Below are positions 2,065 through 56,453 of a stretch of 56,835 nt of DNA, piece by piece. The notes under the pieces were generated by a model. The model was not told where the DNA came from and ran no database searches. It worked only from the letters and a program-made list of their open reading frames with translations. Every line of letters begins with the position of its first letter. The stretch's first letter is position 1. The position numbers and the translations under genes were made by a program. The stretch is from Halomicronema sp. (GTDB lineage Bacteria > Cyanobacteriota > Cyanobacteriia > Cyanobacteriales > Oscillatoriaceae), in the NCBI GenBank assembly GCA_036704045.1, contig DATNQM010000011.1, positions 1-56,835 of the forward strand, written 5' to 3'.

Positions 2065-2144
2065 GTGTGTAGAAATTGGCTTTTTAAATCTTCTGTAGGT
2101 TGGGTTTACCCTGTTGGAAACCCAATAGCATTTTAGCAATACTC

Positions 2145-53771: not shown

Positions 53772-53865
53772 TTGGATAATCGAAAAAACACGGCTTGAAA
53801 TAACTAGCAAGCTTGTGGTTTCAAGAATTTTTTAATTAAGCAAGGTGGCTACGGCATTGTAAGGA

Positions 53866-53948
53866 GGGTGCATTCTTTCCCCCAGCCCCCTGTACCAAGG
53901 CATTCCCTCTCTTACTCCCCCCTTACCAAGGGGGGCTGGGGGGGTTAA
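53866..53948. repeat. C6/G6-stem palindromic repeat block (…TTTCCCCCAGCCCCC…CCCCCCTTACCAAGGGGGGCTGGGGGGG)
   Basis: First block of the same family found at 54343-54443 and 55323-55445. It contains the palindrome CCCCCCTTACCAAGGGGGG. Confidence 0.7.
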
Positions 53949-53979
53949 CCTAAGAAAATACTAAAATTCAACCACACCG

Positions 53980-54333
53980 ATGACTCAACTTTATAACAAA
54001 ACATCCGAGAAAGCGAAACGGCAACAGCTTCGACGGAATATGACAAAAGCTGAATTGATCATGTGGCAAAAACTCAAAGGTAAGCAGCTTGAAGGATATA
54101 AGTTTCGCCGTCAATACAGTGTCAGTTCATTTGTCATCGATTTTTATTGCACCGAACTTAAACTAGCAATAGAAATTGATGGAGACAGTCATTTTGAAGA
54201 TGGTGCCCAAGAATATGACCGGCAGAGGCAGGCTTTTATTGAGTCTGTTGGGATTAGATTTTTAAGGTTTACTAATGATGAGGTGTATGGGAATTTGGAG
54301 GGGATTATTCAAAAGATTGGGGAATTAAGGTGA
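53980..54333 (+). CDS. DUF559 endonuclease-domain protein (Vsr-like fold)
   Basis: 117 aa with the DUF559 pattern (…YKFRRQ…FVIDFYC…LAIEIDGDSHFE…DRQRQAFIESVGIRFLRF). Confidence 0.8.
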   Translation: MTQLYNKTSEKAKRQQLRRNMTKAELIMWQKLKGKQLEGYKFRRQYSVSSFVIDFYCTELKLAIEIDGDSHFEDGAQEYDRQRQAFIESVGIRFLRFTNDEVYGNLEGIIQKIGELR

Positions 54334-54342
54334 GTGATGAGT

Positions 54343-54443
54343 TGTTGATTTTACCCCTCCAGAGCCCCAAGACTACCCCCCTAGCCCCCCTTGGTAAGGG
54401 GGGAGTATTCTTTCCCCCCAGAGCCCCAAGACTACCCCCCTAG
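54343..54443. repeat. Two tandem ~60-bp units of the C6/G6 repeat family (GAGTATTCTTTCCCCCCAGAGCCCCAAGACTACCCCCCTAGCCCCCCTTGGTAAGGGGGG), the second interrupted by the IS
   Basis: Direct sequence identity between the two units and with the units at 55323-55445. Confidence 0.7.
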
Positions 54444-54499
54444 GGTGTGTTTTCAAACTCGCTGTATCCTAGAAAATAGAAAATGGCAAACACTTAAAA

Positions 54500-54871
54500 G
54501 TGATGAACCGAGGAGACTTAAGTAACGAACAGTGGGAGAGGTTAACACCCCTACTTCCTCTACTCAAACCCCGAACAGGTAAACCAAATCACGACCACCG
54601 ACAAGTGGTGAACGGCATTCTCTGGATACTCAGAACTGGGGCTCCCTGGCGAGATCTGCCAGAACGTTATGGAAAATGGCAAAGTGTGGCCACAAGATTC
54701 TATCGCTGGCAAAAAGCTAATATTTGGCAGCAAATCTTAGAACATCTCCAAGCCGATGCTGATCTCCAAGGAAACTTAGATTGGGAGGTTCATTATGTCG
54801 ATGGCACAGTAATTCGCGCACACCAGCACGCAGCGGGTGGAAAAAAGGGGGCCAAGTTGAGGAGAAACTAG
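54500..54871 (+). CDS. IS5-family transposase OrfA (DNA-binding N-terminal part)
   Basis: DUF4096-like N-terminus (LSNEQWERLTPLLP…GAPWRDLPERYGKW), ending just after the A7G slippery site. Confidence 0.8.
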   Translation: MMNRGDLSNEQWERLTPLLPLLKPRTGKPNHDHRQVVNGILWILRTGAPWRDLPERYGKWQSVATRFYRWQKANIWQQILEHLQADADLQGNLDWEVHYVDGTVIRAHQHAAGGKKGAKLRRN

Positions 54872-55308
54872 GTCGTTCTCCTGGTGGGTTTAGTACAAAA
54901 ATACATATACGTTGTGAAGGTCAAGGTAAACCGCTTACTTTTTTACTCAGTCCAGGTCAACGTAACGAATCAATATTTTTGGAACCGTTAATGGAACAAG
55001 GAGCCGTCAAACGTTCCGGGCCAGGTCGTCCCCGTATCCGTCCACAAAGGGTCGTAGGAGACAAAGGCTACACAGGTCGTCGCATCCGTAGTTATCTACG
55101 CCGTAGAGGTATCCGTTTTACCATCCCACGACTTTCAAATGAACCACGTCGGGGTTCAGAGAGCCGTGAAATCTATCGTCAACGCAATATTGTTGAACGT
55201 GCTATCAACCGACTCAAGCAATTTCGTCGCCTCGCTACTCGATATGAGAAGCTAGCTGCAAATTATACAGCCATGATTACGGTTGCCTGCATTCTGCTGT
55301 GGTTGTAG
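54781..55308 (+). CDS. IS5-family transposase OrfB (DDE catalytic part, expressed by -1 frameshift from OrfA)
   Basis: DDE_Tnp_1-like C-terminus (VVGDKGYTG…NIVERAINRLKQFRRLATRYEKLAANYTAMITVACI). Frame is -1 relative to OrfA, overlapping it at the A7G motif. Confidence 0.8.
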   Translation: MGGSLCRWHSNSRTPARSGWKKGGQVEEKLGRSPGGFSTKIHIRCEGQGKPLTFLLSPGQRNESIFLEPLMEQGAVKRSGPGRPRIRPQRVVGDKGYTGRRIRSYLRRRGIRFTIPRLSNEPRRGSESREIYRQRNIVERAINRLKQFRRLATRYEKLAANYTAMITVACILLWL

Positions 55309-55322
55309 TTTGAAAACACGCC

Positions 55323-55445
55323 CTAGCCCCCCTTGGTAAGGGGGGTGCATTCTTTCCCCCCAGTCCCCCTTGGTAAGGGGGGAGTATTCTTTCCCCCCAG
55401 CGCCCCAAGACTACCCCCCCAGCCCCCCTTATTAAGGGGGGAGTA
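55323..55445. repeat. Two further tandem units of the C6/G6 repeat family, including the palindromes CCCCCCTTGGTAAGGGGGG and CCCCCCTTATTAAGGGGGG
   Basis: Direct identity with the units at 54343-54443. Confidence 0.7.
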
Positions 55446-55762
55446 AGATGTTAATTTCAGGTATCGACTAGAACTGCGTGGGTTCCTCCCCACACAAAAG
55501 CGAATCGCATACAGTGGGCGCTTCACCATCGCTCATCTCTCGACAAAAAGCGATCACTCTGGCGTAAAGAAAAAGCGAGCGCTTTTGTGCCATCACTAAG
55601 ACGTGCGATCTGCTTGCAGCAGCGCTTCGCTATCGCACTCAATCTCCCATCATCTACCGTGATCACAATAAAACGTAGGGTGGGTTAGCGACAGCGTAAC
55701 CCACCGAGTTTAATGATAGGGATGGTGCGTTACTTCGTTAACGCACCCTACAAGATAGGTGA

Positions 55763-55933
55763 TCGCACTTTATCGCTTCTGTCCCTCAGTTGGCAGGATG
55801 TCATACACAAGCCAAATCTTTAGATGAGTTGATGGAACGTATCCGAGAAGCTATCGAGCTCTGTTTGGAATTTCAAGAGGAACAGGATTCATTGGATTTT
55901 GTGGGTGTGCAACGAATTGCAGTTGAAGTATGA
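55763..55933 (+). pseudogene. N-terminally truncated hicB-family antitoxin remnant (…VPQLAGCHTQAKSLDELMERIREAIELCLEF…)
   Basis: Open frame without a start codon until an internal ATG at 55832. It matches the HicB core (VPxLPGCxSQG…EAIELYLE pattern) but lacks the first beta-strand region, and its stop overlaps the hicA ATG (ATGA). Confidence 0.5.
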
Positions 55934-56031
55934 GCCAACTGCCAAGTTTAACAGGACGCGAAGTTATAGCATCACTTGGTAAAATAGGTTTTAAAGTTGC
56001 TAGGGTGCGTGGAAGTCATCATCAGCGATAA
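55930..56031 (+). pseudogene. C-terminally truncated hicA-family toxin remnant (MSQLPSLTGREVIASLGKIGFKVARVRGSHHQR*)
   Basis: HicA N-terminal motif (…G…RxxGSHH) followed by a premature stop. The missing C-terminal ~25 aa region is overlapped by the convergent ORF 56022..56453. Confidence 0.5.
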
Positions 56032-56453
56032 ATTACACGTACACGAATAGATTGACTGATGGTATCATTTGGAGTTACCGAATTTATTACGATTATCGGA
56101 TATCTATTAAAGTCTCTAGATATACATGTTTTCGTCTTGGGGCCAGGAAAGAATCTTTCCTGTTTTAGTTCAGAAGTGCTCGTGTCTACTACAATTACGG
56201 TACCGAAAAAGTTATCACTTGTCTCGAAACAAATTAATGTCTGCCCATAACCGGGTGGTGTAAACTCCAATTGCTCTTCAGGACCGAGAGTCTTGTTGTC
56301 TACTAAAATCGTTTCTGCTAAGGCTGTACCAACGACACCAAAAGAAATTCCAACAGTAGTGATTAAAACTGCCGGTAGTTTTTTGACAATAATCATACGA
56401 CAATACCTTTTTTGTGTAAATTTACGTTGAATAGGGGTTTTTTCTTCCTCCAT
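56022..56453 (-). CDS. hypothetical secreted/membrane-anchored protein
   Basis: Hydrophobic signal/anchor (LPAVLITTVGISFGVVGTALA) then a ~100-aa beta-rich-looking domain; no family recognised. Its 3' end overlaps the hicA remnant. Confidence 0.4.
   Translation of the reverse strand: MEEEKTPIQRKFTQKRYCRMIIVKKLPAVLITTVGISFGVVGTALAETILVDNKTLGPEEQLEFTPPGYGQTLICFETSDNFFGTVIVVDTSTSELKQERFFPGPKTKTCISRDFNRYPIIVINSVTPNDTISQSIRVRVIYR

What the first reader, a model, noticed from the sequence alone, without database searches (positions are those of the whole stretch)
55446..56031. GC-richer foreign-looking segment with two covarying 9-bp hairpins upstream of decayed hicB-hicA remnants
Downstream of the last repeat block the composition shifts toward GC, with frequent GATC and GCGC. 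Two hairpins, GGTGGGTTA-gcgacagcg-TAACCCACC (55685-55711) and GGTGCGTTA-cttcgt-TAACGCACC (55726-55749), differ by a compensatory G:C to C:G swap in the stem. That pattern indicates selection for structure or for a dyad-symmetric binding site, for example a HicB operator pair. They are followed by a hicB fragment lacking its N-terminus and a hicA truncated after GSHH, the latter overlapped by a convergent ORF. This looks like the eroded edge of an integrated element.
Basis: partly seen in the sequence, partly recalled or inferred. Interest (0 to 1): 0.5.

Follow-up and report, generated by a model that had tools for sequence, protein, structure and literature searches.

The report
REP hairpin pair beside truncated hicBA
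The two matching hairpins are an ordinary copy of a widespread bacterial mini-repeat (a REP doublet, or REPIN, of the kind moved by RAYT transposases), not a control site for the neighbouring toxin-antitoxin genes, which are just an internal fragment of a hicBA operon cut off at both ends.

Summary
The hairpins are real. Their true coordinates are 55679-55705 and 55724-55747, with outward GTAG/CTAC tags at 55675 and 55751. They are not chance: 0 matches in 100 shuffles, and the DNA fold has z = -5.2.

They are a head-to-head doublet of GTAG-tagged REP elements (a REPIN).
- The same GTAG-GGTG[C/G]GTTA…TAAC[G/C]CACC hairpin fills intergenic DNA of many cyanobacteria and proteobacteria.
- In 161 copies the C:G/G:C stem position is always complementary.
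- The same REPs flank bona fide RAYT genes in Floridanema and Dolichospermum.
- The Dolichospermum REPIN is collinear with the window's, including the loop GCGACAGCG.

None of 86 intact hicB loci carries this hairpin, so the HicB-operator idea fails.

hicB lacks its first 14-15 codons and hicA keeps 31 of 74. The retained 256 nt is otherwise clean, with substitutions mainly at third codon positions.

Two close relatives (Ancylothrix and an ENA contig) have the second REP and its flank at the same chromosomal site but an avidin-like gene instead of hicBA. The region is therefore a 2.6-kb variable islet between conserved genes.

The GC, GATC and GCGC excess comes from REPs and broken HIP1-like octamers.

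Verdict: ordinary and already known. Low interest.

The parts
55675..55705 (+). REP-a (hairpin 1). GTAG tag 55675-55678; stem arms 55679-55687 and 55697-55705 (GGTGGGTTA/TAACCCACC); loop GCGACAGCG, which adds a 2-bp GC extension after a 1-nt bulge.
   Evidence: The loop is identical to REPs in Dolichospermum L133, Aphanizomenon L026, L088 and L097.
55706..55723 (.). 18-nt spacer between the two REPs (GAGTTTAATGATAGGGAT).
   Evidence: Comparable spacers of roughly 10-45 nt are seen in the inverted pairs listed.
55724..55751 (-). REP-b (hairpin 2), read on the minus strand as GTAG-GGTGCGTTA-acgaag-TAACGCACC. Stem arms 55724-55732 and 55739-55747; tag CTAC 55748-55751 on the + strand.
   Evidence: An exact 24-nt copy occurs in L058. 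A REP of the same type (same stem arms, different loop) sits at the orthologous site in L127 13070-13097 and in L214.
55752..55769 (+). Right flank AAGATAGGTGATCGCACT, with the HIP1-like octamer GTGATCGC at 55759-55766. It is shared with the REP flank in L127/L214 and with the REPIN next to the Dolichospermum RAYT. The hicB fragment begins directly after it.
55640..55674 (+). Native backbone left of the REPIN. caatctcccatcatct is shared with L127 12999-13014 and L214. The HIP1-like GTGATCAC at 55659-55666 lies 8 nt before GTAG.
55466..55639 (+). About 172-174 nt absent from both relatives, rich in AGCG/CGCT palindromes and broken HIP1 octamers. Its last 30 nt (55610-55639, CTGCTTGCAGCAGCGCTTCGCTATCGCACT) are a dispersed cyanobacterial repeat.
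   Evidence: There is no Rfam match.
55763..55933 (+). hicB remnant, codons about 15/16 to 70 plus the stop. No start codon, and a TGA at 55760 in frame.
   Evidence: Pfam HicB_lk_antitox 27.1 bits. 86% aa identity to the 70-aa P0001. 89-90% nt identity to L001/L005 from 55767.
55930..56031 (+). hicA remnant. Codons 1-31 of 74 (homology ends at 56022), then Q-R-stop. The ATGA overlap with the hicB stop is retained.
   Evidence: Pfam HicA_toxin 26 bits, profile positions 1-24 of 58..
56022..56453 (-). Complete 143-aa small secreted-protein gene (annotated in NCBI as hypothetical protein V6D13_03570). Its stop codon sits exactly at the hicA break.
   Evidence: A 140-aa orthologue with the same C-terminal SQSIRV is in L214. 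Ten homologues cover residues 2/20-140.
55319..55445 (.). Context: CCCCCCTTGGTAAGGGGGG repeat block, also present in L127/L214 just before the REP.
54440..55326 (+). Context: IS5-family insertion sequence (DUF4096 + DDE ORFs, out of frame with each other) with 16-nt inverted repeats and CTAG on both sides, inserted in the repeat block. Absent from the relatives.

Best explanation
The two hairpins are a REPIN. This is a head-to-head doublet of GTAG-tagged repetitive extragenic palindromes (REPs) of the GTAG-GGTG[C/G]GTTA…TAAC[G/C]CACC family.

Such elements are non-autonomous. On single-stranded DNA each REP folds into a hairpin. That hairpin, together with the adjacent 5' GTAG, is what a REP-associated tyrosine (HUH) transposase (RAYT/TnpA_REP) recognises and cuts. 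The need to keep the hairpin explains why stem changes are always compensated, and the C:G and G:C versions are two standing variants of the family. This mechanism is established for E. coli TnpA_REP and is only inferred here.

At this site the REPIN is old furniture of an intergenic hot spot. Two relatives carry REP-b and its flank at the same position.

The adjacent hicBA is an internal 256-nt fragment of a hicB-hicA operon (hicB codon 16 to hicA codon 31). It has no promoter, no ribosome-binding site and no start codon, and the HicA fold is incomplete, so it is non-functional. It lies where the relatives carry an avidin-like gene. Its left end abuts the REPIN's HIP1-like flank (…GTGATCGCAC|TTTATCGC…), and its right end abuts the stop codon of a complete convergent gene. 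The join most likely arose by illegitimate or microhomology recombination, or by deletion, in a variable islet that also took up an IS and a DUF559 gene. That last step is inferred and its order is unresolved.
For: Anatomy:
- The tags, 9-bp stems, bulged extension and inverted orientation with an 18-nt spacer are read directly from the sequence.

Family:
Hits are in Nostocales, Oscillatoriales, Bradyrhizobium, Pseudomonas and Pasteurellaceae, with several assemblies hit more than once.
- Of 161 copies, 132 are preceded by GTA, which makes the GTAG tag.
- The variable stem position is C..G in 93 copies, G..C in 68, and non-complementary in 0, although the search pattern allowed non-complementary combinations.
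- 74 copies have an inverted partner within 80 nt.
- A mixed C/G doublet also exists elsewhere (L046).

RAYT link:
- 183-aa genes scoring 179-193 bits on NCBIfam NF047646 'REP-associated tyrosine transposase' (cut-off 80) are flanked by this REP in Floridanema L132 and Dolichospermum L133.
- They are flanked by the one-compensated-change variant GTAGGATGCGTTA…TAACGCATC in Kovacikia, Gloeocapsa and Nostoc.
- The L133 REPIN starts at the RAYT stop codon and is collinear with window 55675-55769.

Literature:
- GTAG-REP families, HH dimers and REPtrons in cyanobacteria are described in PMC3733652.
- Cyanobacterial TnpA_REP subclasses with long GT[AG]G REPs are described in PMC6006769.

hicBA:
- Searches give the details.
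- Substitutions against L001 and L005 fall 19/28 and 16/25 on third codon positions.

Site history:
-.
Against: - Only one doublet of this family occurs in the 56.8-kb contig.
- No RAYT gene is on the contig or on the 32 kb fetched from the two relatives. Multi-copy status and a cognate transposase in this genome are therefore unproven, and the copy may be a relic.
- The exact family number in the published GTAG classification (probably GTAG-15, with GTAG-14 in Bradyrhizobium) could not be checked, because the figure holding the consensus sequences is not held.
- The order of events (REPIN, 172-nt insert, hicBA fragment, avidin gene) cannot be resolved from three genomes.
Confidence: 0.9

Rival explanations
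1. The hairpin pair is a dyad-symmetric operator bound by HicB to autoregulate hicBA.
For: The pair lies directly 5' of the hicB remnant, and the two half-sites differ by a compensated change.
Against: - 0 of 86 intact hicB loci have the motif within 300 nt upstream or anywhere in the locus, allowing one mismatch per arm.
- The motif is a dispersed repeat in hundreds of unrelated intergenic sites and in phyla beyond cyanobacteria.
- REP-b with its flank is present at the same site in L127 and L214, which have no hicBA.
- The promoter, ribosome-binding site and start codon of hicB are absent here.
Confidence: 0.02
2. The 77-nt unit is a MITE with 13-nt terminal inverted repeats (GTAGGGTGSGTTA), moved by a DDE transposase such as the neighbouring IS5-family element, whose inverted repeat begins (C)TAGGGTGTGTT.
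For: The terminal inverted repeats are read directly from the sequence. The first 11 nt of the IS inverted repeat resemble the REP end.
Against: - No target-site duplication flanks the unit (AAAAC|GTAG … CTAC|AAGAT).
- Single REPs of the family occur alone and each is itself a hairpin.
- The genes found flanked by these REPs are RAYTs, not DDE transposases.
- The IS inverted repeats continue as TTTTCAAACT, which is unrelated to the REP.
Confidence: 0.03
3. The hairpins act at the RNA level at this locus, as a terminator, an mRNA 3'-end stabiliser or a small RNA.
For: REPs in other bacteria are reported to affect termination and mRNA stability (background in PMC3733652). The fold is strong.
Against: - Neither stem is followed by a T-tract, and the terminator scan does not list them.
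- There is no Rfam match.
- No intact gene reads into them. Upstream lie an IS and repeat blocks, and downstream a promoterless gene fragment.
- Any such effect would be a by-product of a REP, not a separate identity.
Confidence: 0.05

Closest known systems
REPINs / GTAG-tagged REPs with RAYT (TnpA_REP) transposases (Bertels & Rainey 2011, PMC3116915; Di Nocera et al. 2013, PMC3733652, cyanobacterial families GTAG-12/15/16 and Bradyrhizobium GTAG-14; Quentin et al. 2018, PMC6006769)
   Same: - A 5' GTAG tag next to a 9-bp basal stem.
- A longer loop with GC termini and a bulged extension.
- A head-to-head (HH) doublet with a short spacer.
- Compensated stem variants.
- An intergenic position.
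- The same REP flanks RAYT genes in other cyanobacteria.
   Different: - Only one doublet is seen on this contig, and no RAYT is visible.
- This copy carries HIP1-like octamers 7-8 nt outside both tags. That is seen at REPtron ends (L128-L133) but at only 1 of 112 ordinary REP ends.
E. coli BIME/REP with RayT (YafM)
   Same: The same class of element. The cyanobacterial RAYTs found here are 42-44% identical to E. coli RayT.
   Different: The stem sequence differs, the loops are longer, and no IHF or gyrase-site architecture is known here.
hicBA type II toxin-antitoxin operons (hicB first, ATGA overlap)
   Same: Gene order, the overlapping stop/start, and 86% aa identity of the retained HicB part to intact 70-aa cyanobacterial HicB.
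   Different: HicB lacks codons 1-15 and all expression signals. HicA lacks codons 32-74. It is a pseudogene fragment, not a working module.
HIP1 (GCGATCGC) highly iterated palindrome of cyanobacteria
   Same: Octamers one mismatch from HIP1 cluster in 55550-55766. The homologous flanks in Nostocales carry perfect HIP1.
   Different: The host has no perfect HIP1 and no CGATCG in about 89 kb examined. Every copy here is broken.

Membership tests
GTAG-REP / REPIN | A GT[AG]G tetranucleotide 0-2 nt 5' of the hairpin | tested here: met
   GTAG at 55675-55678 on the + strand and at 55751-55748 on the - strand, both directly abutting the stems. 132 of 161 family copies carry it.
GTAG-REP / REPIN | A 20-40 nt imperfect palindrome with a fully paired basal stem of 7-20 bp, optionally with a second stem after a 1-3 nt bulge | tested here: met
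   Two 9-bp perfect stems. REP-a adds 2 bp after a 1-nt bulge. ssDNA fold -19.6 kcal/mol, z = -5.16. The criteria are quoted from PMC6006769.
GTAG-REP / REPIN | Two REPs in inverted orientation separated by a short spacer (REPIN / HH dimer) | tested here: met
   Tags face outward with an 18-nt spacer. 74 of 161 family copies have such a partner.
GTAG-REP / REPIN | Many dispersed, mostly extragenic copies within one genome | tested here: inconclusive
   There is one doublet in the 56.8-kb contig and one REP in each of L127 and L214. In other genomes several loci per assembly were hit, although the scan stopped at 120 rows.
GTAG-REP / REPIN | A cognate RAYT gene flanked by the same REP (REPtron) | tested here: inconclusive
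   No RAYT is in the window, L127 or L214. The feature is met in other cyanobacteria: NF047646-positive genes in L132 and L133 are flanked by GTAGGGTGCGTTA REPs.
GTAG-REP / REPIN | Cleavage or transposition by RAYT on single-stranded DNA | not testable with these tools
   This needs biochemistry or population data.
HicB operator | The site is conserved upstream of intact hicBA operons of the same clade | tested here: not met
   0 of 86 loci. The upstream regions of the ten closest loci share no such dyad.
HicB operator | Specific binding by HicB | not testable with these tools
   This needs EMSA or footprinting.
Functional hicBA toxin-antitoxin module | Full-length HicB (about 70 aa) with a start codon and expression signals | tested here: not met
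   Homology starts at codon 15/16, a TGA lies at 55760, and there is no ATG/GTG or ribosome-binding site.
Functional hicBA toxin-antitoxin module | Full-length HicA (about 74 aa, complete HicA_toxin domain) | tested here: not met
   Only profile positions 1-24 of 58 are matched, at 26 bits against a cut-off of 27. Homology ends at codon 31.
MITE (moved by a DDE transposase) | Terminal inverted repeats plus a target-site duplication | tested here: not met
   Terminal inverted repeats are present, but the flanks AAAAC / AAGAT are not duplicated.

The most novel reading that the evidence does not exclude
The window's REPIN is not an ordinary dispersed copy. It may be a REPtron-terminus-type unit: a REP doublet bracketed by HIP1-like octamers, as at the ends of cyanobacterial RAYT loci. 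This could be the footprint of a lost RAYT gene or a larger composite mobile unit. Its HIP1-like flank (GTGATCGCAC) would then have served as the recombination junction at which gene cassettes (hicBA here, an avidin-like gene in the relatives) are swapped. In that reading REPIN flanks act as cassette-exchange hot spots in a HIP1-free cyanobacterium.
Probability: 0.12. Interest if true: 0.4.

Novelty: already known. Interest (0 to 1): 0.12.

Why it matters
It matters little beyond annotation.
- The result shows that a pair of hairpins with a 'compensatory' stem change next to a toxin-antitoxin remnant is a copy of a known selfish repeat family, not a regulatory site.
- It corrects the boundaries of two unannotated pseudogenes.
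- The one mildly useful by-product is a clean three-genome example of a small intergenic islet where an IS, a DUF559 gene, a hicBA fragment or an avidin-like gene are exchanged next to a conserved REP.
- It also gives evidence that this lineage lacks HIP1/CGATCG while retaining broken HIP1 copies inside repeat flanks.

Tried and rejected
1. I first read the hairpin cassette as an in-frame 87-90 nt insertion inside hicB, because the frame upstream reads …IIYRDHNKT*, which resembles VIIERDADG. This was rejected: caatctcccatcatct is native backbone shared with L127 and L214, which have no hicB.

2. I then read 55597-55639 as the hicBA upstream region, because it is 86% identical to L001 2879-2921. 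This was rejected as evidence of shared ancestry: the 30-mer CTGCTTGCAGCAGCGCTTCGCTATCGCACT is a dispersed repeat also present in L133 (twice) and L126.

3. Rfam gave nothing at gathering threshold over the whole window and only chance-level hits at E up to 5 for 55300-56100.

4. The search for a RAYT in the window, in the 120 scan loci and in L127/L214 found nothing. It used tblastn with E. coli RayT and with the Dolichospermum RAYT, plus an HUH…Y..NP regular expression.

5. A general REP-HIP1 association was rejected. Only 1 of 112 REP ends in HIP1-bearing loci has HIP1 within 25 nt, against 2.5% of random 25-mers.

6. A full-text search for the stem sequences returned only unrelated primer hits. 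The supplements of PMC3733652 do not hold the consensus sequences, so the GTAG family number could not be confirmed.

7. An exact look-up of the 143-aa ORF in the look-up of encoding contigs found nothing. The listing of cluster members then identified the contig.

8. The L127 156-aa gene is unrelated to the 143-aa ORF. The true orthologue is the 140-aa gene of L214.

Full report
**What is in the sequence**

The window is a complete 56,835-bp contig of a metagenome-assembled cyanobacterium labelled Halomicronema sp. (proteins HEY9808389-97). Its closest sequenced relative on this stretch is Ancylothrix sp. D3o/C2.

Downstream of a C/G-rich repeat block (55319-45) lie two perfect 9-bp hairpins, at 55679-55705 and 55724-55747.
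- The degenerate pattern GGTGSGTTA-N3-14-TAACSCACC occurs twice in the window and never in 100 shuffles.
- The 87-nt stretch folds as single-stranded DNA at -19.6 kcal/mol (z = -5.16).
- The unit therefore has 13-nt terminal inverted repeats, GTAGGGTG[G/C]GTTA.

**What the hairpins are**

A scan of one genome per species for GGGTGSGTTA-N3-14-TAACSCACC hit its 120-locus limit. Hits were in Nostocales, Oscillatoriales and Chroococcidiopsis, and also in Bradyrhizobium, Pseudomonas, Pasteurellaceae and others. Several assemblies were hit more than once.

Counts over the 161 copies in those loci:
- 132 are preceded by GTA, giving the GTAG tag.
- 74 have an inverted partner ending …CACCCTAC within 80 nt.
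- The stem position that differs between the window's two hairpins is C..G in 93 copies, G..C in 68, and never non-complementary, although the search pattern allowed it.

The 'compensatory swap' is thus a standing dimorphism of a large repeat family. Mixed doublets occur elsewhere (L046).

This is the published definition of GTAG-tagged REPs and their head-to-head dimers, or REPINs. PMC3733652 reports such families in Anabaena, Nostoc and Cyanothece, and notes alternative complementary stem residues and 9-15-nt loops with GC termini. PMC6006769 gives the hairpin rules and describes cyanobacterial TnpA_REP subclasses flanked by long GT[AG]G REPs.

**Link to RAYT**

Neither the window nor 1 Mb of scan loci encodes a RAYT.

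A tblastn search with E. coli RayT on plasmids found cyanobacterial homologues in Kovacikia and Gloeocapsa. Both are flanked on each side by GTAG-GATGCGTTA…TAACGCATC, which is one compensated change away from the window's REP.

The Kovacikia protein retrieves more than 2,700 homologues, mostly 183-aa cyanobacterial proteins named REP-associated tyrosine transposase. They score 179-193 bits on NCBIfam NF047646, whose cut-off is 80.
- In Floridanema aerugineum the gene is flanked by GTAGGGTGCGTTA REPs.
- In Dolichospermum FACHB-1091 a REPIN starts at the RAYT stop codon. It is collinear with window 55675-55769: the same loop GCGACAGCG in the first REP, a short-loop second REP, then CTAC-AAGATnGGyGATCGCACT.

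I therefore file the hairpins as a REPIN with high confidence. Multi-copy status and a cognate RAYT in this particular genome remain untested, because only this contig is available.

**Test of the operator idea**

I fetched 80 further hicB loci from metagenomes plus 6 from assemblies. Of these, 83 have at least 150 nt of upstream sequence. None contains the hairpin, even allowing one mismatch per arm, either upstream or anywhere in the locus. The upstream regions of the ten closest loci share no such dyad.

Some of those loci carry other REP types upstream, as any cyanobacterial intergenic region may.

**The hicBA remnant**

- Intact homologues of HicB are 70-72 aa (MKREFNVIIERDADGYFVASVPQLAGCHTQ…), and the downstream HicA is 74 aa.
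- Window 55767-56022 aligns without gaps to L001 and L005 at 89-90% identity, from hicB codon 16 to hicA codon 31. Homology stops sharply at both ends.
- The retained part has no stop or frameshift and keeps the ATGA stop/start overlap.
- It differs from the intact genes mainly at third codon positions (19 of 28 and 16 of 25). It was therefore cut recently rather than slowly eroded.
- It has no promoter, ribosome-binding site or start codon, and lacks more than half of HicA. It cannot work.

**Site history**

Ancylothrix L127 and a third relative, L214, are syntenic with the window up to the signal-peptidase gene and again from the TPR gene. The window and the relatives differ between these points.

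In both relatives the order is:
- the repeat block;
- gttaatttcaggtatc-ccct-caatctcccatcatct…;
- a single REP identical in type to hairpin 2;
- CTACAAGATTAGTGATCGC;
- an avidin-like gene;
- in L214, a 140-aa orthologue of the window's 143-aa ORF.

The window differs from the relatives as follows:
- a DUF559 gene and an IS5-family IS lie inside the repeat blocks;
- about 172 nt are inserted before caatctccc;
- the first REP is present;
- the hicBA fragment sits in place of the avidin gene.

Conclusions from this comparison:
- The REP predates the junction and did not insert into hicB.
- The fragment's left end lies exactly at the REP's HIP1-like flank.
- Its right end lies at the stop codon of a complete gene, whose homologues cover the ORF to residue 140-142.
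- The segment is a 2.6-kb variable islet (53861-56451), not the edge of a large integrated element.
- The order of events cannot be settled with three genomes.

**Composition**

The GC excess is modest: 0.494 against 0.405, and 7% of windows are as high. GATC and GCGC are enriched (P = 0.005 and 0.03).

The cause is concrete. The REPs, several AGCG/CGCT palindromes and six HIP1-like octamers account for it. Four of the window's nine one-mismatch HIP1 sites fall in 55550-55766.

The host itself has no GCGATCGC and no CGATCG in the window, L127 or L214. The homologous flanks in Nostocales carry perfect HIP1. 'Foreign-looking' is fair for the hicBA fragment and for these repeat flanks.

**Verdict**

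The feature is a known kind of selfish repeat beside an ordinary pseudogene fragment. Interest is low.

The only unexplained detail is that this REPIN, like REPtron ends, is bracketed by HIP1-like octamers, which is rare for ordinary REP ends (1 of 112).

Noticed in passing
whole window; L127; L214: There is no GCGATCGC (HIP1) and no CGATCG in 56.8 + 21.6 + 11 kb, against about 8.5 CGATCG expected in the window from base frequencies. This cyanobacterial lineage appears HIP1-free and avoids the PvuI-type site, which may reflect a restriction system. The nearest hicBA contigs L001/L002 also have none.
   Followed up: partly
window 54440-55326: An IS5-family IS (DUF4096 ORF 54500-54871 and DDE ORF 54781-55308, in different frames) has inverted repeats GGTGTGTTTTCAAACT/AGTTTGAAAACACGCC and CTAG on both sides. 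It is inserted inside a CCCCCCTTGGTAAGGGGGG repeat unit and is absent from both relatives. Its inverted-repeat start (C)TAGGGTGTGTT resembles the REP end (G)TAGGGTGCGTT, which is probably coincidence.
   Followed up: partly
window 53860-53945, 54348-54443, 55319-55445; L127 12891-12994; L214 5314-5417: Blocks of a roughly 37-59-nt repeat built around the hairpin CCCCCCTTGGTAAGGGGGG, followed by T-rich tails that the scan lists as terminator-like (window 55326-55383). They bracket the DUF559 gene and the IS, and they are conserved at this site in the relatives.
   Followed up: no
window 55659-55666 and 55759-55766; L128, L129, L130, L133: The REPIN is bracketed by HIP1-like octamers 8 and 7 nt outside GTAG/CTAC. 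REPs that flank cyanobacterial RAYT genes likewise have a HIP1 nearby outside the tag (about 7-35 nt). Only 1 of 112 ordinary REP ends in the scan loci has HIP1 within 25 nt.
   Followed up: partly
window 55610-55639; L001-L004; L133 1034-1068 and 1855-1884; L126 1753-1777: A dispersed 30-mer, CTGCTTGCAGCAGCGCTTCGCTATCGCACT, made of two mini-palindromes (CTGC..GCAG and AGCG..CGCT) next to a HIP1-like end. It recurs in Nostocales and upstream of intact hicBA in L001. Its nature is unknown.
   Followed up: partly
window 2095-2125: A second GTAG-tagged hairpin of another type (GTAGGTTGGGTTTACCCTGTTGGAAACCCAA) lies between convergent ORFs ending at 2064 and 2191. The related stem GTTGGGTT…AACCCAAC-CTAC occurs upstream of hicB in L135 and L137.
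   Followed up: no
window 56022-56453 (-): The 143-aa protein with an N-terminal signal-like segment belongs to a very rare family: 10 hits at E ≤ 0.001 among 1.8 billion representatives. L214 has a 140-aa orthologue. There is no Pfam match.
   Followed up: partly
genome scan loci L024, L049, L051, L033, L038, L079 and others: The same REP stem (GGGTGGGTTA/TAACCCACCC or the C variant) is shared by Cyanobacteria, Bradyrhizobium/Xanthobacteraceae, Pseudomonas, Pasteurellaceae and Moraxellaceae. This is an unusually wide spread for a single REP stem sequence.
   Followed up: no
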